Virus record (IMG/VR): IMGVR_UViG_2740892427_000001
Strand: one strand, 5' to 3'
DNA from: a virus
Taxonomy: Duplodnaviria > Heunggongvirae > Uroviricota > Caudoviricetes
DNA: 64,000 nucleotides
Part shown: piece by piece, positions 7,068 to 54,372 of the stretch
Layout: each line of letters begins with the position of its first letter
How positions within the stretch are numbered: position 1 is the stretch's first letter
Notes under the pieces: model-generated
Database searches by the model: none
Told to the model about the DNA's origin: nothing
The model's input: the letters and a program-made list of their open reading frames with translations, nothing else
Position numbers and translations under genes: made by a program

Positions 7068-8753
7068 TCATTTAACGCGTTTGAAAACGTATACGCTGAC
7101 TGTGATCCCTGTGTCTTCAAACTCGTTGGTAAACGACTTCCCTCTGGCATAAACGTAATTATCCATCGTCATCCAGTCCAGTATTGGCGCAGTGCCCGGC
7201 AATACTGCTACAAGACGCCCGCCGACTTTCAGATGCCCCAGCGCAGCCAGCGTGTGCTCTCTATGACGACCAAGCGAGTACGGCGGGTTCATAACGATTT
7301 TGTCGAACTGATAACCTACGTTGTCCTCAGACCACTTTATGAAGTCGCAGCAAATCGTGTTCGTATACCCTTTTCCGCGCAGGATATCAGCGAAGAGAGG
7401 TGCGATTTCTATGCAGGTAACATCTTCCAGATCGGCGTTAATATAGGCCAGAAGATCCCCACGTCCGGCTTGAGGCTCCAACAACTTCTCACCAGGCTTC
7501 AATTCAGTGGCTCTGGCAACGTACTCAGCAATCAAGCGTGGGGTAGGGTAGAACTGGTGTGATTTTGTATCCGGTATTAAACCGGTAGCCACAATCGTAT
7601 TTAGCGTATGGCCGATCTCATACGGGAACTGCCAGTGCTTTTTCTCCTGCACGCCGCCAATGAAGCTCAGTGTGCGCTCAAGCTCTTCCACCTGCGACTT
7701 CTGGAGAGCTGAATCAGAGAAGTACCATACGCCTTTGTCTTTGCTAAATCGCCCGTCACGAAGCGCAGTGCGAACCGGCACGGAGATCGTCTTCTGGATT
7801 AACCCGAACTGCTTTGGTGCCCGTGTTTTTGGCGCAGTTCGGCATGGCGCGGGAATTGCAGCAGGCATACTGTAAGCCAGCACCTCATTCAACTTCCAGG
7901 CCACGTCAGGATGTATTTCAAAGTGAACGTTGCCGTTCTTGAACATCTTCACGCGCATCAGATTTCCATCGACGTTCATCCAGTCACCGGTCTGGCAGTC
8001 GTTTGCCCGATACGCAGCTGATAGCACCTCAGCAGTGCGGTTGATGGTAATAAATTCTTTGTGCGCGAAGAAATGAAGCAAGACACGCAGATCGTCGATA
8101 TAGTCCTCTTTGCGATAGTTCACACTAACGCTGTCCCGCCAGAAATCAGAAATGCAGTCAGCGATTATCAGACGTTCGCTGAAACCGTTTGTCTTATTTG
8201 TCTTGTGCGCAGGACTCAGCGCCTTAAACAAGCCATACACGCGCTCAGAGAGATATTTGTGCCTGTCATTCAGCAAATTAAGCATCGTGGGTATGACCGT
8301 TTCTGCTTTGAACTCCGGTACACCAACGAACTCTTTAACCTTCATCTGGTAGCCGGTTCTGTCAGTTTTGATGACTTCCTGTTTGCCCTCTATAAACTGC
8401 TCGCGCCACTCATCTCGACGGGAAGCTGGCATGATCAGCAAAACGTTAGTCATGTCCGTGACCTTCCTCCAGTACTCGGCCCAAATATTCTGTTTCACCC
8501 ATTCCAGATCGACTTTATCCAACCAACCTCGATTTAAACGCGAGCGATCTTCATCTGGTCGATGGTTTAGTCTCAGCAGGCGATTAATCATGTTGTGGCG
8601 TTCGTCGCCATAAACGAAGTCGTGTACCTGATACATGAAGGCGATCTCTTTCTCGCACTCGGCCACAATTTCGTGGATGACGTTCATTTCCTGCCGATAG
8701 TCGATAGCAGTGTTTGAGTTGGCATCGTCGATGATGGAAAGGGCTGTATTCAT
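7068..8753 (-). CDS. DNA N6-adenine methyltransferase fused to a large uncharacterized N-terminal domain
   Basis: C-terminal third carries FYPTP, EPQAGRGDL (AdoMet-binding) and NPPY motifs; N-terminal ~380 aa unassigned. Confidence 0.65.
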   Translation of the reverse strand: MNTALSIIDDANSNTAIDYRQEMNVIHEIVAECEKEIAFMYQVHDFVYGDERHNMINRLLRLNHRPDEDRSRLNRGWLDKVDLEWVKQNIWAEYWRKVTDMTNVLLIMPASRRDEWREQFIEGKQEVIKTDRTGYQMKVKEFVGVPEFKAETVIPTMLNLLNDRHKYLSERVYGLFKALSPAHKTNKTNGFSERLIIADCISDFWRDSVSVNYRKEDYIDDLRVLLHFFAHKEFITINRTAEVLSAAYRANDCQTGDWMNVDGNLMRVKMFKNGNVHFEIHPDVAWKLNEVLAYSMPAAIPAPCRTAPKTRAPKQFGLIQKTISVPVRTALRDGRFSKDKGVWYFSDSALQKSQVEELERTLSFIGGVQEKKHWQFPYEIGHTLNTIVATGLIPDTKSHQFYPTPRLIAEYVARATELKPGEKLLEPQAGRGDLLAYINADLEDVTCIEIAPLFADILRGKGYTNTICCDFIKWSEDNVGYQFDKIVMNPPYSLGRHREHTLAALGHLKVGGRLVAVLPGTAPILDWMTMDNYVYARGKSFTNEFEDTGITVSVYVFKRVK

Positions 8754-8856
8754 AATTGCACCATTAAGAAGTGATTTGTTTAATGGTGCAATTATTTCAA
8801 AAATGAAAAGGTACTAAATAGAAATAAACAGGCAATCCTTCAAATAAAGGCATTGG

Positions 8857-24385: not shown

Positions 24386-25128
24386 TTACCATGTTCCCCA
24401 TAGAGGGTTTTCCAATAATCTCGCCTCCAACGAATTGGTTACTATTGCCGTTTGCAACGTTGGTTGGGGATAGTTTGCAAAGTCTGAATACTCATTTTCC
24501 TGCGTGACACGTTTATCTACGGCATGTTTAACGCCACTTGCTATGAAATGACGCATGATACCCAACAGCCTCCGACTGTCTGCACTATCGTTTGCTAAAA
24601 CATGAGGGAGCTGAAGTTCGATTTCTACCATTTCTCCATACTTACCAACAAACTGTAGTTTGTCCGCACTGTACTTTTTATCCCTCCTTTGGATAAGGAA
24701 ACCAGTAAAAGCATCACCTGGCGATGCCAAACTATCCACCCGCTTATTGGCAAGTCGAATAAGGTTCGTGAAAGCCATACAGTGATGCGCATCCATTGCC
24801 CCAAAGAACCCTTCGCTATCAATGTTAAGATCTTCAGTTTCATGGGTTGCGATAAACCCAGGCCCGACGTTGGGGAGATATCCCCCTCAACAAAAGGATT
24901 AATCAGGATCGGCGCAATACATCCAGGTGGTAGTGATTTCAAACTTTGCATCAATGGTGTCTCGGATATTAGACCAAGCAACGAGGCGAATTGTACTCCG
25001 TCAATATTGTTGCTGCCCCACAGAATACGTGGAGCCGAACCATTGGAAGTATGCCCATTGATCAGTTTTATCGACTGCATCACTGCAAATACCTGCAAAA
25101 ACTGCGAGCGGCTTAATTTAAACGACAT
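24386..25128 (-). pseudogene. gene interrupted by a frameshift at a G5 tract (two overlapping ORFs in different frames)
   Basis: Upstream frame is protein-like to ~24890, then the other frame is protein-like to the stop at 24386; switch point is the ccccc run at 24882..24886 inside palindrome GGGGAGATATCCCCC. Confidence 0.5.
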
Positions 25129-41589: not shown

Positions 41590-41918
41590 TGATGCCCGCC
41601 AATTGGCGGGCATCTGTTCTCTGTAAAGGTGTCTGGCATCGTCTGGTTCGTTAACGTTTACTAAACCAATGGTGACAAAAATTAGTTATCTTTGAAAAAT
41701 AAAGGTTGCATGAAAAGAAGGGGTATGCGTTAATAGCATCGTTGGTTTGCAAGACAGACCTTATGTAAGCAGTTTTAGTAAAGCAGTCTCAGTTCAGTGT
41801 TATCTTCTGATTTCCCTTCTTCGTGAGTCTCCTCCTTAAGTGCCTAAGTAAGTCCCAATCTATACAGATCAAATTCTCGCCGCACTATGTGGCTCACAAA
41901 ATTAAGAAGGTAATATCT

Positions 41919-42134
41919 ATGTCTAATAAAATGACTGGTTTAGTAAAATGGTTTAACTCTGATAAAGGCTTTGGCTTTATTTCTCCTGCTGATGGCAGTA
42001 AAGATGTTTTTGTACATTTTTCGGCAATTCAGAGTAATAATTTCCGCACTTTGGAAGAAGGCCAGCAGGTCGAATTCTCTATCGAGAATGGTGCTAAAGG
42101 CCCAGCAGCAGCAAATGTCGTTGCTCTAAGCTGA
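41919..42134 (+). CDS. cold-shock protein (CspA family)
   Basis: [38 protein letters not shown] is near-identical in pattern to E. coli CspA/CspE; long 5' UTR. Confidence 0.85.
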
Positions 42135-42412
42135 TTCAACGCTGATGATCCTCATTTCTACAATAACGAAGACGGTGTAAGCCTGAGTGGATAGATTTGT
42201 AGGATTGTACAAGTTGAATAAATTAGCATGGTAAGGCCATGCTAATTAAATCGACACAACGGCCAGTTTATTCCATAAAAGTGAATTGCCCATTGTGGCG
42301 AAATGCGGGGTTGCCGCATGAATAGTCAAAGGCAGAAGCTAACTGCCGGCATGGCAAAACAAAGTGCGTAAGAGGAGTGACTTCCTCAACAAGCGCCATA
42401 ATTCTTTATAAA

Positions 42413-42437: not shown

Positions 42438-45400
42438 TTACTTATTTATTGTCTCCGCGATATCAGCCAGAATGGCCTCCAGTCGCTCTCCTTCTTCCGG
42501 TCGGAAGTACAGGATATTCGGGTTAAATCCGTAGAAGACGGTTGCATCAAGCTCTGGGAAGTACTCCTTACGACCAATCAGATCTGATGGTTTACTCTTA
42601 TTGTTAAATAGTGCGGTTGAACGACTACCACACGTCAAAATGTAGGTTGGTCGTACAAGATTAATTTCTTCCCGCATAAAGTCTGTGAACTGGCCTATCT
42701 CGTCTTTGGTATAGTCTTTCTCTTTGTCCTTAACCTTCTTACAAACACCCGTGACATAAAGATCGCCCATGCGCAGATCTCCAACTGTCAGTAGTTTTGC
42801 CTTAAAGTCGTCGTATCCGTTCTCCATGAAGTAGCCGGTACGAGCGTCATTGCCGTTCGCATTGTCCAGAATGATCATGATTTTGGGTTTAATACCAATA
42901 GTCGGGCGTATCAACTCCTCACCCAAGCCCATTTCAGCCGCCATACGTGTCATGAGTACGTTGATTTCGGCAGAACGCTTAGGATTCATTTCGAACGGAC
43001 GTGATGCTTTAACAGCGTCAATGATGAGATTGCCCATCAGCTCAGCCTGGTCGCGCAGTCGTTCAGGATCAGTTGCTGGCAGACTGCCTGGCTCAATTGA
43101 CGCAAAAGCCCCTACTTTATGAAGCGACTCGCGTACACGACTGTTACATGCACGCTTCTCGACCGCTTCATCGAATTGTGCCACTGACTCGAATTTGCCA
43201 CCAACTTTCTCACGCGCACGCATAATTGCCTGACAACCATTTTCAGAACAGCCTTTCACAGCAGAGAATGGCGCATACAGTGCCTGACTGCCGTCTTCGA
43301 GTGTGCGGATCTCAATTCGGTTAGATGACACATTAACGTCTGGTGGCAATACGCGAATGCCATAGGTCAGCGCATCCTTCACCAGCCCCTGATGCTTATC
43401 CTCGCCCAGAATGGTGAGCGCAGCTGCGAAGAACTCAGCAGGGTAGTGCGTCTTTAGCCACATAGACTGATAACTGATTAAAGAATAAGCAACACTGTGT
43501 GATTTGTTGAAGGCATATCCACCGAACTTCTCAAAGGCGTCCCATATTTCTTGGGCTTTTTCCTTACTGAGACCTTCTTGTTCAGAGACGATCTCCACGT
43601 AGTCTATGCCGTCACTAATAGCCTCGCTGTAGCTTCTACGCTTACCGTCTGAGCAATCCAGTTTTGCGTGTTTGTGAACCTCTACAGTACCTCCATTTTT
43701 GAGTGACAGTGTCACCCAGCCTGCTTGTGCTCGTTCTACAAAATCGCTGCCGATCGCTTTCATCTTATCCATGTTCTTTTTACCGATAGCGGAACGCAGA
43801 GCGTCTGCTTCGGCCATAGAGAACCCGGCAAGTACTCGGGAACTTTGCATGATTTGTTCCTGATAGAGCAAAACACCATTAGTCTCCCGGGTGACTTCCT
43901 CAAGACGCGGATGAATTGAATGTGGAGCCATGAAGCCTTTGGCCACGGAGACATAGTCGTCCAACATGCCGGATTGGATCGGGCCTGGTCGGAAGAGTGC
44001 GGTCGTGGCGACAACGGTCTTGAAGCTCATTGGCTCGATGCCACCGCCCAGATCTTTAAGCAACTTACGCATGGGGCCGGACTCCAGCTGGAATACGCCC
44101 TGCGTGTACCCTGCAGCGAACCCATCCAGAACCTTGCGATCGTCCAGTGGGATAGCGTCGAGATTGATGTCTTCCCCGGTACTCTCTTTGATGTAGCGTT
44201 TCGCGCTATCCAGAAGATCGAGCGTTGCCAGGCCAAGCACGTCCAGCTTAATTAGGCCCATAGCCTCGCAGTAACGCTTGTCAAATGCGATACAACGCGC
44301 GTCACCACGGCGCTCAACCGGTGTACGTTCTGTCAGAGGAACACCTGCTACGATCATCCCTGCCGCATGTCTACCAAAGCCACGCATAAGGCTTTGTAAC
44401 TTGCAGGCTGCATTGAATGCATCAGGATATTTTGTTGCGTATTTGTCGAGACTTGCCAGTTGTTCGCGCAGCTCTTCCAATGGAAGGCTATCATCCTCGA
44501 CGTTCTTCAGTTCTTTTGATACCGCCATATCTGCGGACTCCACACCATAAATACGAGCGGTGTCACGTAGTGCAGATGCCGCGCCCAGATAGGTGAAGTT
44601 CGGAATGCCTGCAACGTAATCTTCGCCGTAGCGTTCATTCAGATACTCGATCACCTCATGGCGACGTGCCTGGCTGAAGTCCAAGTCCGCATCCGGCAAG
44701 TCGAGACGCTCAGGGTTGATGAAACGCTCAAACAGAAGACCGTGACGGATTGGGTCGACGTTGGTTATGCCTATGCACCACGCCACCAGAGAACCGGCAG
44801 AGGAACCACGACCAGGCCCGACAGGAATGCCAGTTTCACGGCTGTGATTCATCAGATCGCGTACCATCAGGAAGTAACCACAGAATCCCAGGCGAGTCAG
44901 CGTGTCCATTTCGTACTTTAGCCGCTCAACATAAACCCTGTTCTCAGAAGCAGGTGGTGTGTATCCAAACTCTTTTGTGGTAAGACGTTTACGCAGCCCT
45001 GCAACAGCCAGTTTCATCAGCGTTGCAGGTTCGTCGTCTGCCATCTTGGGCAGTGCTGGTGGCAATTCATGCCAGCGCCATGTGCAGGCATCGATAATGG
45101 AGTCCTGCGTTGTTGAGGCCATTGCAGCTGTTACCGGCACATCCATGCGAACGGAGAAGGCTTTAAGCGCCTCAAGGAGATGGCGACGACCATTGATGGC
45201 GTTATCTCGCTGGTGGGGGATACGCAGACGATGCGGCTGGTCGATTTTTATGTTGTTCGTAACCATGTGCGCAATGTCTTTAATGTCTGCATCGTCGATC
45301 GATTCGTAATAAGCGGGATAGAACGCCACTGGCTCTATTTTCAATGCGCTGGCTACTTTCATCGCTCGGACGTTAATCTGGTCGTAGAATGGGGTAGGGT

Positions 45401-45944
45401 GCGGATAAACCACGCTATAGAAGTTGTCTTTCCCGCCCGCTGTAATCAGTGAGCTTATGATTTTTGCAAAATCGTTGCGTTGGAACACGCTACCGATGTC
45501 GGAAGTGAGCAGGATGATGTTGCCTTTGGCATATGTAGAAACCAACTGTTCGAGCGAGAGACGCGGTACAAAGTAGAACTGTTCTCGTGTGTTGGCCACC
45601 GTCATTAGTTCGCAGATGTCGCGATATCCTTTCTCATTTTTAATTAGAGCGGTAAACGAGTAGTTACGTCCTCGCTCCAATGATTCCATACATCCCTTAG
45701 ACTCTTTAGCAAGTTTAGCCCGGTGCTCGTATGTGGGATCATCAACGATGTTTAGTTTCACACCACAAATAACCGCCATGTCGTCACCAGCGGCACGTTG
45801 TAGTGGAATAACGCTCGCAATATTCATGCTATCTGCTGAAATTACAGCGGTGTAGCCAGCTTCTCTGGCAATCTTCACCGCGTTTTCTGCTTTTAGAGCC
45901 GACTCCCCAAGTGAGAAGTCAGTTCGAACCATCAGTGCTTTCAT
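42438..45944 (-). CDS. dnaE: DNA polymerase III alpha subunit-like replicative polymerase
   Basis: 1168 aa; N-terminal PHP-like domain; PDADLDF catalytic aspartate block parallels DnaE PDIDIDF. Confidence 0.8.
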   Translation of the reverse strand: MKALMVRTDFSLGESALKAENAVKIAREAGYTAVISADSMNIASVIPLQRAAGDDMAVICGVKLNIVDDPTYEHRAKLAKESKGCMESLERGRNYSFTALIKNEKGYRDICELMTVANTREQFYFVPRLSLEQLVSTYAKGNIILLTSDIGSVFQRNDFAKIISSLITAGGKDNFYSVVYPHPTPFYDQINVRAMKVASALKIEPVAFYPAYYESIDDADIKDIAHMVTNNIKIDQPHRLRIPHQRDNAINGRRHLLEALKAFSVRMDVPVTAAMASTTQDSIIDACTWRWHELPPALPKMADDEPATLMKLAVAGLRKRLTTKEFGYTPPASENRVYVERLKYEMDTLTRLGFCGYFLMVRDLMNHSRETGIPVGPGRGSSAGSLVAWCIGITNVDPIRHGLLFERFINPERLDLPDADLDFSQARRHEVIEYLNERYGEDYVAGIPNFTYLGAASALRDTARIYGVESADMAVSKELKNVEDDSLPLEELREQLASLDKYATKYPDAFNAACKLQSLMRGFGRHAAGMIVAGVPLTERTPVERRGDARCIAFDKRYCEAMGLIKLDVLGLATLDLLDSAKRYIKESTGEDINLDAIPLDDRKVLDGFAAGYTQGVFQLESGPMRKLLKDLGGGIEPMSFKTVVATTALFRPGPIQSGMLDDYVSVAKGFMAPHSIHPRLEEVTRETNGVLLYQEQIMQSSRVLAGFSMAEADALRSAIGKKNMDKMKAIGSDFVERAQAGWVTLSLKNGGTVEVHKHAKLDCSDGKRRSYSEAISDGIDYVEIVSEQEGLSKEKAQEIWDAFEKFGGYAFNKSHSVAYSLISYQSMWLKTHYPAEFFAAALTILGEDKHQGLVKDALTYGIRVLPPDVNVSSNRIEIRTLEDGSQALYAPFSAVKGCSENGCQAIMRAREKVGGKFESVAQFDEAVEKRACNSRVRESLHKVGAFASIEPGSLPATDPERLRDQAELMGNLIIDAVKASRPFEMNPKRSAEINVLMTRMAAEMGLGEELIRPTIGIKPKIMIILDNANGNDARTGYFMENGYDDFKAKLLTVGDLRMGDLYVTGVCKKVKDKEKDYTKDEIGQFTDFMREEINLVRPTYILTCGSRSTALFNNKSKPSDLIGRKEYFPELDATVFYGFNPNILYFRPEEGERLEAILADIAETINK

Positions 45945-52067: not shown

Positions 52068-52414
52068 TGCTTTGCCTCATGCCACTTTTGCTTCAGGAGA
52101 TAGCCTTCCAGGGGCCAGATTTGATCGATAGCATCTTTTCGAGCGTACTCGCGACCAACATCAAAGTTGAAGATTTCTGGTCTTACGCACGCAGATTTTC
52201 CCGTTACGGTATATCCATTTTTGAGAACCATAACGCAGAACGTTAAGAGTTTTAACGACTCATGACCTTTGTCGATATCTGTTTTTGAATTGTAAACAGA
52301 GATGAAGTTATCCCCGTGGCTGGCATCATATGCAGTGAAATAATGTTCACTTTGAATGAGTTGTTCAATGTGTTCAGGGGTGACTTTTAGTGGTGTGTTA
52401 TCTTTGCTGGTCAT
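52064..52414 (-). CDS. hypothetical protein
   Basis: 116 aa ORF overlapping glutaredoxin start. Confidence 0.45.
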   Translation of the reverse strand: MTSKDNTPLKVTPEHIEQLIQSEHYFTAYDASHGDNFISVYNSKTDIDKGHESLKLLTFCVMVLKNGYTVTGKSACVRPEIFNFDVGREYARKDAIDQIWPLEGYLLKQKWHEAKQ

Positions 52415-52555
52415 TATTTCTTCCTACAAAGTTCGTAGACTTGACTCTTTCAGTTGCAAAAAAGGGGCCGAAGCCCCTTTGAATTTTGCGCTGAAAAAAA
52501 GTGTTGCTAGGATGTTAGCAAGCTATGGTTAAGAACGTCTGCCGTAATTGTCTAT

Positions 52556-52633
52556 CACAGCGTTGAGCGGTCTGGTTTATGTTAGCGGAGTCTTAATCTG
52601 GGTGATTAAAAGGCCAAACCGCTCAACGCTGTG
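52556..52633 (-). repeat. hairpin-bounded module H1 (15-bp perfect terminal inverted repeat CACAGCGTTGAGCGG), abuts tRNA-Ser
   Basis: 78 nt; one of four related modules in the tRNA region. Confidence 0.45.
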
Positions 52634-52635
52634 TT

Positions 52636-52722
52636 TGGCGGAGAGTAATGGAATCGAACCATCATCGCTTGCGCAATGGGACGGTTTTCAAGACCGCTTG
52701 AGCACCATGCTCCCTACTCTCC
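52636..52722 (-). tRNA. tRNA-Ser (anticodon TGA), long variable arm
   Basis: Cloverleaf folded by hand: acceptor GGAGAGT/ACTCTCC, anticodon loop CTTGAAA, T-loop GGTTCGATTCC, 87 nt. Confidence 0.7.
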
Positions 52723-52822
52723 AGCTATTGTGATGGTCGGTGCTGAACTCCGACACAGGGTTGTAGCAAGCCCCGCAAAGCGCGCACTACTGTAGTTGCG
52801 GCACATCAGCCTGTGCATTCAT

Positions 52823-52901
52823 CACAACGGTAAGATCACTACCTTTCGACCAGTCATTGTGCACATGAACGACGATTAACCGTAATGATCTTATCGTTGT
52901 G
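52823..52901 (-). repeat. hairpin-bounded module H2 (terminal inverted repeat CACAACGGTAAGATCA)
   Basis: 79 nt, 16-bp stems with one G-U position. Confidence 0.4.
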
Positions 52902-52952
52902 TTGTGAAGCCAGATGCTTATCTTCTGGTTGCTTCAAAGAGCTGCACTTCCT

Positions 52953-53041
52953 CACAACGGTAAGAGCACTGGTCTGACTCTATCGATTTACGGGCTTGTG
53001 GGTCAGTATCGCCGATTCGCCCAATGCTCTTACCTGTTGTG
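52953..53041 (-). repeat. hairpin-bounded module H3 (terminal inverted repeat CACAACGGTAAGAGCA), abuts tRNA-Thr
   Basis: 89 nt, 16-bp stems with one bulge. Confidence 0.4.
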
Positions 53042-53042
53042 T

Positions 53043-53118
53043 TGGTGCCGGTTAACGGGATCGAACCGCTGACATCCTGCTTACAAGGCAGACGCTCTAC
53101 CAACTGAGCTAAACCGGC
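53043..53118 (-). tRNA. tRNA-Thr (anticodon TGT)
   Basis: Acceptor GCCGGTT/AACCGGC, anticodon loop CTTGTAA, T-loop GGTTCGATCC, 76 nt. Confidence 0.8.
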
Positions 53119-53122
53119 AATT

Positions 53123-53209
53123 TGGTGGGGAGTGATGGAGTCGAACCACCCGAGTCGCAATGACAGTAGATTTACAGTCTACCCCGCTGCCCCTACGGAC
53201 TAACTCCCC
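53123..53209 (-). tRNA. tRNA-Tyr (anticodon GTA), long variable arm
   Basis: Acceptor GGGGAGT/ACTCCCC, anticodon loop CTGTAAA, T-loop GGTTCGACTCC, 87 nt. Confidence 0.75.
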
Positions 53210-53214
53210 TAAAT

Positions 53215-53289
53215 TGGCGATGGTGGGTGGATTCGAACCACCGACCAGTTGGTTAACAGCCAACTGCTCTACCGCTGAGCTACACCATC
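53215..53289 (-). tRNA. tRNA-Asn (anticodon GTT)
   Basis: Acceptor GATGGTG/CACCATC, anticodon loop CTGTTAA, T-loop GGTTCGAATCC, 75 nt. Confidence 0.8.
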
Positions 53290-53555
53290 AATTCAGCACT
53301 GCCAGTATTTATTACTCAACAGTGCCAATCGCGACGGTTTAGTTTCTGCCAGGAAACGCACCGCTACTTGCACTTTTCGTTAGTGCCAGACGCTTTCGAC
53401 TTCGCTCAATAGTAGAAGGCAAAATCTTTAAGTAGATGATGTTTCTGAGGACAGCACCTACTTTGTAATTTATACAATGTGATGTATGGAATCATTTGTT
53501 GTGAAAACAGGCACCAATGGCAACAGTGGTTAAACCTACACAACAATCCTGTCTT

Positions 53556-53677
53556 CACAACGTTGAGGCCACTACTCCGATTGAATGTTTGCCCAACATG
53601 TTACATATCAACGCTCGCCGGTATCTCTGTGAATAGAACCTTAGAATTGATAAAAATGTAATGGCCTCAACGTTGTG
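53556..53677 (-). repeat. hairpin-bounded module H4 (16-bp perfect terminal inverted repeat CACAACGTTGAGGCCA)
   Basis: 122 nt; upstream of the tRNA cluster. Confidence 0.4.
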
Positions 53678-54081
53678 TGCTGGCTAACCATACCAGCCGG
53701 GCTACGTCGCCGCTTTTTAACCCAGTATAAACGACATAATTGAACAAAATGACGTAACAGGATGGGCGGTCAGTGGCTAAGAATCCGGGAGTCATATGGA
53801 GTTGAAAATATACCAACCGCCCATTCTGTTACTTCATCGGATAGGGCATAGTGGTTTGGCTGTCTATGCCCTATCCTGCGTTCTGCAATCACACTCGCTC
53901 AGTGTGTCCCATTTCGGTAACGAGGCTGGAAACTGACCTCGCTGGTGTTTGGCTTATTAGGCTACTGCCAGATAGACTTCTTCGTTTGCACTTGTATTTA
54001 AGTTCAAACAGTCGCGTCTCAACGAAAACAAAGTCATCTTATACATAAAAGATAAGTAAGTAAATACTTATCATGATGTTT

Positions 54082-54372
54082 CTATTCGGTTGTGACTTTT
54101 TTGATCAAGGCCACTCTACGACTAGGTGTTCTTGTGATGGTGGCAGTGAATCGTTTCGCCTGGATAGTAATGGTTTCGTTCTCCTTAAGTTGCCCGTAGC
54201 GAGTTTCCACCAGGGTGCCAAGACGCCACAGACCATCATCGATACGTTTATGACTAGCAAATTTAATCAGCAACAGTTTTACGACTAACTGACCTACGTA
54301 AAAGGCGAATGCGACTCCGGTCGCTAAGAAATAGGTGGCCAACCACCATTCCCAAGAAGTTAAATTGCTCAT
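54082..54372 (-). CDS. membrane protein
   Basis: 96 aa; N-terminal TM segment WEWWLATYFLATGVAFAFYVGQLVV. Confidence 0.45.
   Translation of the reverse strand: MSNLTSWEWWLATYFLATGVAFAFYVGQLVVKLLLIKFASHKRIDDGLWRLGTLVETRYGQLKENETITIQAKRFTATITRTPSRRVALIKKVTTE

What the first reader, a model, noticed from the sequence alone, without database searches (positions are those of the whole stretch)
52556..53677. Four hairpin-bounded modules sharing a CACAACG-type terminal inverted repeat, interleaved with the tRNA genes
Modules H1 (52556..52633), H2 (52823..52901), H3 (52953..53041) and H4 (53556..53677) are each 78-122 nt and closed by 15-16-bp near-perfect terminal inverted repeats that all begin CACA(A/G)CG. 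H1 and H3 start within 2 nt of the 3' ends of tRNA-Ser and tRNA-Thr. They are not tRNAs and are too long-stemmed for ordinary terminators. They could be stable small RNAs, tRNA-processing or anti-termination elements, or miniature inverted-repeat insertions.
Basis: seen in the sequence. Interest (0 to 1): 0.55.

Follow-up and report, generated by a model that had tools for sequence, protein, structure and literature searches.

The report
Phage RNase III processing hairpins beside tRNAs
The four hairpin modules are real and belong to a widespread, so far uncatalogued family of 20-base-pair RNA hairpins in enterobacterial phage operons, relatives of which sit where RNase III is known to cut (the DicF precursor; probably the lambda late leader), so they are most likely cutting points that separate tRNAs and other RNAs from one long transcript, not mobile elements.

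Summary
H1-H4 lie at the stated coordinates, but the closing stems are 20 bp, not 15-16. They read best on the minus strand, which is the tRNA strand.

The window is a ~107-114 kb E. coli phage-plasmid. The modules belong to a large family: 268 instances and about 99 unique sequences in IMG/VR contigs, P1, SSU5-like plasmids, lambdoid prophages, Sashavirus, Phapecoctavirus, phage lambda and the K-12 Qin prophage.

Shared features of the family:
- Ends CACAAC...GUUGUG.
- A stem of almost exactly 20 bp.
- A frequent bulged A at position 7 and a U.G wobble at position 17.
- An unconserved interior of 30-100 nt.

When modules are oriented by the neighbouring tRNA, stems hold 97 G.U pairs against 8 A.C mismatches. 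Compensatory changes occur in 14 of 20 pairs. This points to selection on the RNA, not the DNA.

Modules directly follow tRNA 3' ends, intrinsic terminators or small hairpins. The Qin member lies in the dicBF transcript. The published RNase III-dependent 5' end of the 190-nt DicF falls inside its 3' arm.

Best explanation (confidence 0.65): RNase III processing hairpins. The MITE, terminator and attC readings fail their tests. This is a new member of a known kind, of moderate interest.

The parts
52556..52633 (-). H1: 78-nt module with a 20-bp closing stem (CACAGCGUUGAGCGGUUUGG / CCAGACCGCUCAACGCUGUG). It starts 2 nt after the CCA of tRNA-Ser.
   Evidence: (minus strand -41.2 kcal/mol, z -10.7). 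Among E. coli and Klebsiella orthologues the stem is conserved apart from one G-C to G.U change at its last pair, while the interior diverges.
52823..52901 (-). H2: 79-nt module (CACAACGAUAAGAUCAUUAC...GUAGUGAUCUUACCGUUGUG).
   Evidence: A homologue lies in the tRNA cluster of Phapecoctavirus DE16, with a compensatory change in the inner hairpin.
52953..53041 (-). H3: 89-nt module (CACAAC[A]GGUAAGAGCAUUGG...CCAGUGCUCUUACCGUUGUG) with a bulged A at position 7. It starts 1 nt after the CCA of tRNA-Thr.
   Evidence: The same tRNA-Thr + module arrangement occurs in P1 and DE16, and a related module sits after tRNA-Asn in the Klebsiella phage-plasmid.
53556..53677 (-). H4: 122-nt module (CACAACGUUGAGGCCAUUAC...GUAGUGGCCUCAACGUUGUG), about 270 nt upstream of tRNA-Asn and directly after a small hairpin.
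   Evidence: The upstream hairpin context is shown.
52636..52722 (-). tRNA-Ser(UGA)
   Evidence: ARAGORN.
53043..53289 (-). tRNA-Thr(UGU) 53043-53118, tRNA-Tyr(GUA) 53123-53209 and tRNA-Asn(GUU) 53215-53289.
52723..52825 (-). X element: a ~100-nt structured RNA directly after H2. It runs from GUGAUGAAUGCACAGGCUGAUGUGC at its 5' end to GUCGG-AGUUCAGCA-CCGAC-CAUCAC at its 3' end. It is a member of a family that usually follows these modules.
52902..52952 (-). S element: a 51-nt spacer hairpin between H3 and H2, a 'mini-X' closed by UUGUGAGGAAG / CUUCACAA with inner hairpin CCAGA-AGAUAAGCA-UCUGG.
   Evidence: It is conserved in P1, P7, D6, SJ46 and Sashavirus, and in the N leader of P22-like phage SPN9CC.
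53498..53561 (-). Hairpin of reverse polarity (GUUGUGAAGACAGG...CCUGUUUUCACAAC). It shares its first GUUGUG with the 3' arm of H4.
   Evidence: I9.
52458..52524 (-). Two tandem intrinsic terminators downstream of H1 on the minus strand (52494-52524 and 52458-52480). They end the tRNA/module array.
   Evidence: Read directly from the sequence. The consensus scanner did not list them.

Best explanation
H1-H4 are RNA elements of the minus-strand tRNA operon. Each is a 20-bp double-stranded stem that serves as a processing site for host RNase III.

Proposed sequence of events:
1. The operon is transcribed as one long precursor. In 5'-to-3' order it reads: small hairpin, H4, reverse-polarity hairpin, tRNA-Asn, tRNA-Tyr, tRNA-Thr, H3, S, H2, X, tRNA-Ser, H1, two terminators.
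2. RNase III cuts both strands near the middle of each stem. By analogy with the Qin member, the cut is about 12-13 nt from the 3' end of the module.
3. This uncouples the RNA upstream (a tRNA, or in other phages a terminator hairpin) from the RNA downstream.
4. The tRNA is left with a short 3' trailer for exonucleases to trim. The upstream piece keeps a protective half-stem. The upper hairpin with its variable interior is released.

What is shown: the structure, selection on the RNA strand, family membership, and placement at RNA junctions.
What is taken from the literature: RNase III makes the 5' end of the 190-nt DicF.
What is inferred: that this end lies inside the Qin module, that the modules in this window are themselves cleaved, and the exact cut positions.
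For: 1. Substrate geometry. Across 76 unique stems, pairing is 95-100% at 17 of positions 1-19 (83% at position 9, 94.7% at position 17), 75% at position 20 and about 48% at positions 21-22. That makes a helix of almost exactly 20 bp. The RNase III dimer accommodates about 22 bp (PMC6212723).

2. Selection acts on the RNA of the tRNA strand. With orientation set only by the neighbouring tRNA, 57 unique modules hold 1022 Watson-Crick pairs, 97 G.U pairs, 8 A.C mismatches and 13 other mismatches. The strand chosen by pairing equals the tRNA strand in 176 instances against 2.

3. Covariation. 14 of 20 pairs show compensatory changes. 96.5% of cells are paired, against 32-57% when partners are slid. 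0 of 500 shuffles reach the observed value.

4. The stem, not the interior, is conserved. In H1 orthologues from E. coli and Klebsiella, 19 of 20 stem pairs are identical and the last differs once by G-C to G.U, while the interior diverges.

5. Placement at RNA junctions. 113 instances lie within 5 nt after a tRNA 3' end. Others directly follow intrinsic terminators (lambdoid tR' after Q) or small hairpins.

6. An experimentally studied relative. K-12 Qin carries a family member at NC_000913.3 1649173-1649256, between ydfC and dicF. The 190-nt DicF species has an RNase III-dependent 5' end (PMC10448788). Counting 190 nt back from the DicF 3' end at 1649434 gives 1649245, inside the 3' arm and about 12 nt from its end. 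The same paper found that upstream ydfA transcripts vanish in a strain lacking RNase III.

7. Phage lambda. Lambda has a member directly after tR' (J02459 44787-44862). It is the only ~20-bp duplex in the late leader. Daniels et al. 1988 (Virology 167:568) report RNase III processing sites in lambda late RNA in vivo. Only the title is verified.

8. Host precedent. RNase III cleavage after tRNA metY releases that tRNA (Regnier and Grunberg-Manago 1989; title seen).
Against: - No transcript or cleavage data exist for this plasmid.
- The Qin cut is placed from the reported length of 190 nt. The mapped nucleotide is marked only by colour in the supplement and could not be read, and the paper's 813/814 numbering could not be tied to genome coordinates.
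- The lambda paper could not be read, so the position of its sites is my inference.
- RNase III has loose sequence needs, so the near-invariant CACA...UGUG ends, A11-U, G12-C and the U.G at position 17 are not explained by cleavage alone. They may mark a second partner or alternative pairings with neighbouring modules.
- Interiors of 30-100 nt are longer than a processing site needs.
- H1 is followed only by terminators, so there is no downstream RNA for it to release.
- Modules were collected by a finder that requires pairing, which inflates the percentage paired. It does not affect the G.U/A.C asymmetry.
Confidence: 0.65

Rival explanations
1. The modules are carriers of functional small RNAs. 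The conserved stem is a handle bound by a host or phage protein, or cut by RNase III. The variable interior is the active part, for example a regulatory RNA, a decoy or a tRNA-like fragment. This can coexist with the best explanation.
For: - Interiors stay 30-100 nt long instead of shrinking to a tetraloop.
- Some hold T-arm-like hairpins, such as GGGUUCGAAUCCC in the P1 module after tRNA-Thr and GUAGAGUUCGACUCUCUAC in others.
- H1 interiors keep AAGACUCCGC between E. coli and Klebsiella.
- The inner hairpin of H2 keeps its loop GUGCACA with a compensatory stem change in DE16.
- The near-invariant stem positions suggest sequence-specific recognition.
Against: - Interiors are unrelated between subfamilies and diverge fast between orthologues while stems do not.
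- No Rfam family matches.
- No common protein partner is evident across P1-like, SSU5-like, lambdoid, Sasha-like and Phapecoctavirus phages.
Confidence: 0.15
2. The stems are uncleaved stabiliser hairpins. A 5' stem-loop would protect the downstream RNA from 5'-end-dependent RNase E attack after the tRNA is cut out. A 3' stem-loop would protect the upstream RNA.
For: The modules begin 0-3 nt after a tRNA CCA end or a terminator U-tract. That is the spacing at which a 5' hairpin protects, according to established knowledge of the ompA 5' stem-loop. The stems are very stable.
Against: - The 5' end of the 190-nt DicF falls inside the Qin relative's stem and depends on RNase III.
- A perfect 20-bp duplex is an RNase III substrate in rnc+ hosts whatever else it does.
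- A hairpin abutting the CCA would block 3' maturation of the tRNA unless it were cut.
Confidence: 0.1
3. The modules are miniature inverted-repeat transposable elements, or other mobile DNA palindromes, inserted next to tRNA genes.
For: They have terminal inverted repeats. Presence and absence differ between close relatives: Cyrano lacks X-H2-S-H3, and CMS-2020a lacks S-H3. They occur in many unrelated phages.
Against: - No target-site duplications are visible at H1-H4.
- Differences between relatives begin and end in the repeated TTGTG arms. This fits unequal recombination between modules, not excision of single elements.
- Orientation is always sense to the operon (176 against 2).
- There are 97 G.U pairs against 8 A.C mismatches, which selection on DNA cannot produce.
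- No other full-size copy exists in the 64-kb window.
- No consistent target sequence precedes the modules.
Confidence: 0.04
4. The modules are cis-acting transcription elements. Either they are put-like antiterminator RNAs, or they are boxA/nut-like sites that let RNA polymerase read through the downstream terminators.
For: - They lie in operons governed by antitermination, such as the lambdoid late operon after Q and tR' and the N leader for the S element.
- H1 precedes two terminators.
- The commonest 3' arm contains UGCUCUUA, which resembles boxA.
Against: - The boxA-like string is base-paired.
- It is absent from many members (GAUCUUA, CCCUUA, CCUCAAC).
- In lambdoid phages the module follows, rather than precedes, tR'.
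- It has no resemblance to the two-stem put architecture.
Confidence: 0.04

Closest known systems
RNase III site in the dicBF transcript of the Qin prophage that creates the 190-nt DicF precursor (Faubladier et al. 1990; PMC10448788)
   Same: The hairpin at NC_000913.3 1649173-1649256 has the family ends (CAUAAC...GUUGUG), a bulge at position 7 and a ~20-bp stem. It is close to the GAAAGCGCA subfamily found in viral contigs. It sits inside a polycistronic prophage transcript, upstream of a small RNA.
   Different: It follows a protein gene (ydfC), not a tRNA. The cut position inside the stem is inferred from the 190-nt length. The published work does not describe the hairpin as part of a family.
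RNase III processing of the phage lambda late leader (Daniels et al. 1988, Virology 167:568)
   Same: Lambda carries a module of the main subtype directly after tR'. Many lambdoid prophages have the same arrangement.
   Different: No tRNA is involved. I could verify only the title of the paper, not the position of the sites.
RNase III hairpins after tRNA metY in the E. coli metY-nusA-infB operon (Regnier and Grunberg-Manago 1989)
   Same: A tRNA is co-transcribed with downstream RNA and is released by RNase III cleavage of a hairpin just downstream (title seen; details from my own knowledge).
   Different: This is a host operon with no sequence relation to the family. I did not compare the sequences.
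rRNA operon processing stems and phage T7 early-mRNA RNase III sites
   Same: Long stems bracket or separate functional RNAs in one precursor and are cut by RNase III (established knowledge).
   Different: rRNA stems pair sequences kilobases apart. T7 sites have internal loops and are cut on one strand. Neither shares the CACAAC...GUUGUG ends.
MITEs, REP/BIME elements and integron attC sites
   Same: All are 60-140-nt imperfect palindromes in intergenic DNA. attC sites also have bulged bases and a strand preference.
   Different: The modules have no duplications, no transposase or integrase context and no attC core or unpaired central spacer. Orientation is tied to transcription, and there is an excess of G.U pairs on the RNA strand.

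Membership tests
E. coli-type RNase III processing hairpin | Uninterrupted or nearly uninterrupted double-stranded RNA of about two helical turns (~20-22 bp) | tested here: met
   H1-H4 have 19-20 of 20 positions paired on the minus strand. Family-wide, pairing stops at position 20-21.
E. coli-type RNase III processing hairpin | The structure forms in the transcribed RNA strand | tested here: met
   97 G.U pairs against 8 A.C mismatches when oriented by the tRNA strand. 176 against 2 instances agree with the tRNA strand. Transcription itself was not measured.
E. coli-type RNase III processing hairpin | rnc-dependent cleavage leaving staggered ends within the stem | not testable with these tools
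   No RNA data exist for this element. The only indirect support is the Qin relative, where the 190-nt DicF 5' end is RNase III-dependent and, by its length, falls in the 3' arm.
Hairpin family CACAAC...GUUGUG (defined here) | Terminal CA(C/U)A(A/G)(C/U) / (A/G)(C/U)U(A/G)UG, a 20-bp stem, a U at position 17 usually in a wobble pair, and a variable interior | tested here: met
   All four modules fit. H1/H4 belong to the GUUGAG subtype and H2/H3 to the GGUAAG subtype.
MITE / terminal-inverted-repeat mobile element | Target-site duplications flanking the element | tested here: not met
   On the sense strand the flanks are AA/AU, AA/AU, AA/AG and CA/AA, with no duplications. No common target precedes the modules.
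MITE / terminal-inverted-repeat mobile element | Dispersed copies in either orientation | tested here: not met
   No other full-size copy exists in the window. Only a compact look-alike was found at 42255-42297. Orientation is always sense.
Intrinsic terminator | GC-rich hairpin followed directly by a U-tract | tested here: not met
   The 3' flanks are AUAGAC, AUGAAU, AGGAAG and AAGACA. The scanner lists none here.
Any Rfam family (tRNA, Y RNA/YrlA, DicF, put, ribozymes and others) | A covariance-model match | tested here: not met
   Only the four tRNAs match. Nothing else has E<0.01, and there are no meaningful matches up to E=10.
Integron attC site | RYYYAAC / GUURRRY cores, an unpaired central spacer, extrahelical bases and an integron context | tested here: not met
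   By eye, the cores match 5-6 of 7 positions. The stem is continuous with no central spacer. The elements sit in phage tRNA and late operons. I did not examine the integrase annotated about 1 kb away in the Cyrano relative.

The most novel reading that the evidence does not exclude
The hairpins and the X/S elements that follow them may form a modular RNA cassette system shared by many enterobacterial phages. In this reading the conserved 20-bp stem is a standard RNase III-cleavable holder that presents exchangeable cargo RNAs. The neighbouring X element would be a new structured RNA whose two hairpin loops pair with each other. The whole H+X cassette can replace the tRNA-Asn + tRNA-Thr pair at the same site after tR'. 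The cargo or X would then have a function of its own, for example as a tRNA mimic or decoy against host tRNA-directed defences, beyond marking cut sites in the transcript.
Probability: 0.15. Interest if true: 0.65.

Novelty: new member of a known kind. Interest (0 to 1): 0.4.

Why it matters
- **A model for phage tRNA operons.** If correct, a simple testable model explains how tRNAs in phage and phage-plasmid operons are freed from long precursors. It links three loci usually treated separately: the DicF precursor, the lambda late leader and the P1 ban/tRNA region.
- **Annotation errors.** The P1 ORFs upl and plp, and 'hypothetical proteins' in related records, overlie these RNA elements on the opposite strand.
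- **A candidate RNA family.** The hairpin family and the adjacent X element have no Rfam match and could be curated as new families.
- **Limits.** None of this changes what is known about RNase III. The gain is in cataloguing and in connecting known cases.

Tried and rejected
- **Rfam scans.** Scans at permissive thresholds of the region, of the CUS-3 late leader and of 6 kb around the finding returned only tRNAs.
- **Covariance model.** I built R1 from 49 stems joined by a GAAA loop. It cannot span the 40-100-nt interiors and did not recover H1-H4 as whole modules. It found only a compact look-alike at 42255-42297.
- **Genome scan.** 119 of 120 hits were chance matches with no stem. It says nothing about host range and serves only as a negative control.
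- **Alignment of stems.** The first MAFFT alignment mixed bulged and unbulged registers. I replaced it with bulge-aware counting and a gap-free alignment.
- **Literature.** Daniels 1988, the P1 genome paper and the RNase III review are not held. Searches for the sequence strings found nothing relevant. The P22 small-RNA paper lists no RNA with these ends. The supplements of the RNase III cleavage map are not held.
- **Ideas dropped.**
  - attC sites and CRISPR-like or retron-like repeats: wrong architecture and no associated genes.
  - boxA/nut: the motif is paired and is absent from many members.
  - Y-RNA or tRNA-like identity for the modules themselves: T-arm-like hairpins occur in only a few interiors.
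  - The 'boundary sequences' annotated in CUS-3 and Sf6: these are the conserved flanks, not the modules.

Full report
**Observation**

The region 52400-53800 holds four tRNA genes, all on the minus strand: Ser 52636-52722, Thr 53043-53118, Tyr 53123-53209 and Asn 53215-53289. Their closing stems are about 20 bp, not 15-16.

On the minus strand three of the four stems are unbroken 20-bp helices. The recurrent imperfection at position 17 is a G.U pair there and a C-A mismatch on the plus strand. Minus-strand folds have z-scores from -4.7 to -10.7.

The bracketing pattern is expected 0.03-0.04 times per window and occurs only at the modules. The 7-mer alone is not enriched. In the sense direction, H1 and H3 begin 2 nt and 1 nt after the CCA ends of tRNA-Ser and tRNA-Thr.

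The transcript order is: small hairpin, H4, a reverse-polarity hairpin (53498-53561), Asn, Tyr, Thr, H3, spacer S, H2, element X, Ser, H1, then two terminators.

**What the window is**

The spacer region is 100% identical in dozens of ~107-114 kb E. coli, Shigella and E. albertii plasmids. It is near-identical in the phages Cyrano and CMS-2020a. The window is therefore a phage-plasmid.

Relatives differ in blocks. Cyrano lacks X-H2-S-H3 and tRNA-Tyr. One CMS-2020a record has H2 abutting tRNA-Thr. Another has two different modules. The break points lie in the repeated TTGTG arms, which fits unequal recombination between modules rather than excision of single elements.

**A large family**

BLAST of the spacer found parts of it in P1, P7, D6, SJ46, Klebsiella phage-plasmids, Sashavirus, Phapecoctavirus and a P22-like phage. 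Two pattern scans of IMG/VR returned more than 170 contigs. A stem-aware finder gave 268 instances and about 99 unique sequences.

The consensus has two subtypes:
- 5'-CACAAC[A]GGUAAGRGCAUUG ... CAGUGCYCUUAYCGUUGUG-3'
- 5'-CACARCGUUGAG ... CUCAACGYUGUG-3'

The interiors are 30-100 nt and unrelated between subtypes. Pairing is 95-100% at 17 of positions 1-19 (83% at position 9, 94.7% at position 17), 75% at position 20 and about 48% beyond. The helix is therefore almost exactly 20 bp.

On 49 stems that exclude the window's own modules, 14 of 20 pairs show compensatory changes. 96.5% of cells pair, against 32-57% when partners are slid, and no shuffle reaches the observed values. Because the finder requires pairing, the percentage paired is inflated.

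The next test does not depend on the finder. With orientation taken only from the neighbouring tRNA, 57 unique modules hold 97 G.U pairs and 8 A.C mismatches. The better-pairing strand equals the tRNA strand in 176 instances against 2. Selection on DNA would treat both strands alike, so the selected object is RNA of the operon's sense strand.

Among H1 orthologues from E. coli and Klebsiella, 19 of 20 stem pairs are identical and the last differs once by G-C to G.U, while the interior diverges.

**Context**

113 instances lie within 5 nt after the 3' end of tRNA-Ser(UGA), tRNA-Thr(UGU) or tRNA-Asn(GUU). Others directly follow the U-tracts of diverse intrinsic terminators, or small hairpins.

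In lambdoid prophages the module sits immediately after tR'. That places it downstream of the Q antiterminator gene and the late promoter, and upstream of the lysis genes. In CUS-3 a module plus X occupies exactly the slot that tRNA-Asn + tRNA-Thr fill in Sf6. No Rfam family matches.

**Link to known biology**

Phage lambda itself carries a module at 44787-44862, right after tR'. It is the only ~20-bp duplex in the late leader. Daniels et al. [quoted passage not shown] I could verify only the title, so the position of those sites is my inference.

The K-12 Qin prophage has a clear member at NC_000913.3 1649173-1649256, between ydfC and dicF. The 190-nt DicF species has an RNase III-dependent 5' end, confirmed by primer extension (PMC10448788). 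Counting 190 nt back from the annotated DicF 3' end gives 1649245. This is inside the 3' arm (1649237-1649256), about 12 nt from its end, and remains inside if a few terminator U residues are included.

The same study saw upstream ydfA transcripts disappear without RNase III. That fits a protective half-stem left on the upstream fragment. The RNase III dimer accommodates about 22 bp (PMC6212723). A host precedent for RNase III releasing a tRNA from a mixed operon is metY-nusA-infB (title seen).

**Mechanism proposed**

The 20-bp stems are RNase III sites that divide the precursor.
1. A cut near the middle of the stem leaves the tRNA with a short trailer for exonucleolytic trimming.
2. It frees the downstream RNA.
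3. It releases the upper hairpin.

The near-invariant positions (1-4, 11-12, 17-18) might correspond to the contact boxes of the enzyme. That is an untested inference, and they could equally mark another partner or the alternative pairings visible between neighbouring modules (I7, I9).

**Rivals**

- The MITE reading fails on duplications, orientation, copy distribution and the G.U asymmetry.
- The terminator and attC readings fail on anatomy.
- Anti-termination has only a weak boxA-like resemblance, in a paired segment that many members lack.
- A role for the interiors as small RNAs cannot be excluded. It would add to, not replace, the processing model.

**Verdict**

The finding is real and more than chance. 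Its best reading is a known kind of element, RNase III processing hairpins in phage polycistronic transcripts. The new points are that these hairpins form one conserved, widespread and uncatalogued family, and that they are tied to phage tRNA genes. Confidence is 0.65, interest is moderate, and direct RNA evidence is missing.

Noticed in passing
window 52723-52825 (minus strand); also L179 1675-1890, L002 2998-3094: Element X usually follows a module. I found 34 unique versions of 96-212 nt. The 5' part (GUGRUGAAUGCRCAGGCUGAUGYGC) and the 3' hairpin (GYCGG-AGWUCAGCA-CCGRY-CRYCAC) are conserved, and the middle is variable. The two hairpin loops are complementary (GCUGA / UCAGC). One variant changes both loops together (GUCGA / UCGAC), which suggests a loop-loop contact. 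X has no Rfam match.
   Followed up: partly
window 52902-52952 (minus strand); L009 2501-2558; L005 2501-2575: The 51-nt spacer S (inner hairpin CCAGA-AGAUAAGCA-UCUGG) is conserved in P1-like phages and in Sashavirus. It also lies just upstream of the N antiterminator gene of P22-like phage SPN9CC. Its ends resemble those of X.
   Followed up: partly
L002 (phage P1) 2833-3414 and 3773-3853: P1 has at least four modules, plus X and S, between tciA and tRNA-Thr and upstream of tRNA-Asn. The annotated ORFs upl and plp lie on the opposite strand over these elements, and plp overlaps tRNA-Thr. They may not be genes.
   Followed up: partly
L179 (CUS-3) 1603-1890 versus L180 (Sf6) 1601-1756: At the same slot after the late terminator tR', CUS-3 has module + X where Sf6 has tRNA-Asn + tRNA-Thr. 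The flanks are shared on both sides, so these are alternative cassettes.
   Followed up: partly
window 42255-42297 (+): A compact 43-nt hairpin with the family ends (CACAACGG...CCAUUGUG; model R1 E~0.003, rough) lies in the intergenic region between convergent ORFs 41823-42134 and 42438-45944. It is followed by GCGAAAUGCGG, which resembles the start of X.
   Followed up: no
window 53835-53878: A 13-bp hairpin (GGAUAGGGCAUAG / CUAUGCCCUAUCC) is replaced in Cyrano and CMS-2020a by a different hairpin at the same place (GGAGGGAAC... / ...GUUCCCUCC). The structure is kept although the sequence is not.
   Followed up: no
window 53906-54008 (minus strand): A weak match to the 3' part of a tmRNA model (17.3 bits, E 0.025, far below the gathering score). 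It is probably chance but could be a tRNA-like fold.
   Followed up: no
window 54049-54075: A palindrome (GATAAGTAAGTAAATACTTATC) sits just downstream of the ORF ending at 54082 and upstream of the whole array. It may be an operator or promoter region for the tRNA operon. The consensus scan found no promoter.
   Followed up: no
window 8751-8796: A 46-nt near-perfect palindrome (CATAATTGCACCATTAAG...CTTAATGGTGCAATTATT), unrelated to the family.
   Followed up: no
L183 (K-12 Qin) 24436-24470: Directly after the DicF terminator the sequence reads GUGAUGUGGUGAAUGCGG, which contains the motif that starts X. The Qin dicBF operon may therefore hold more of the same module set.
   Followed up: no
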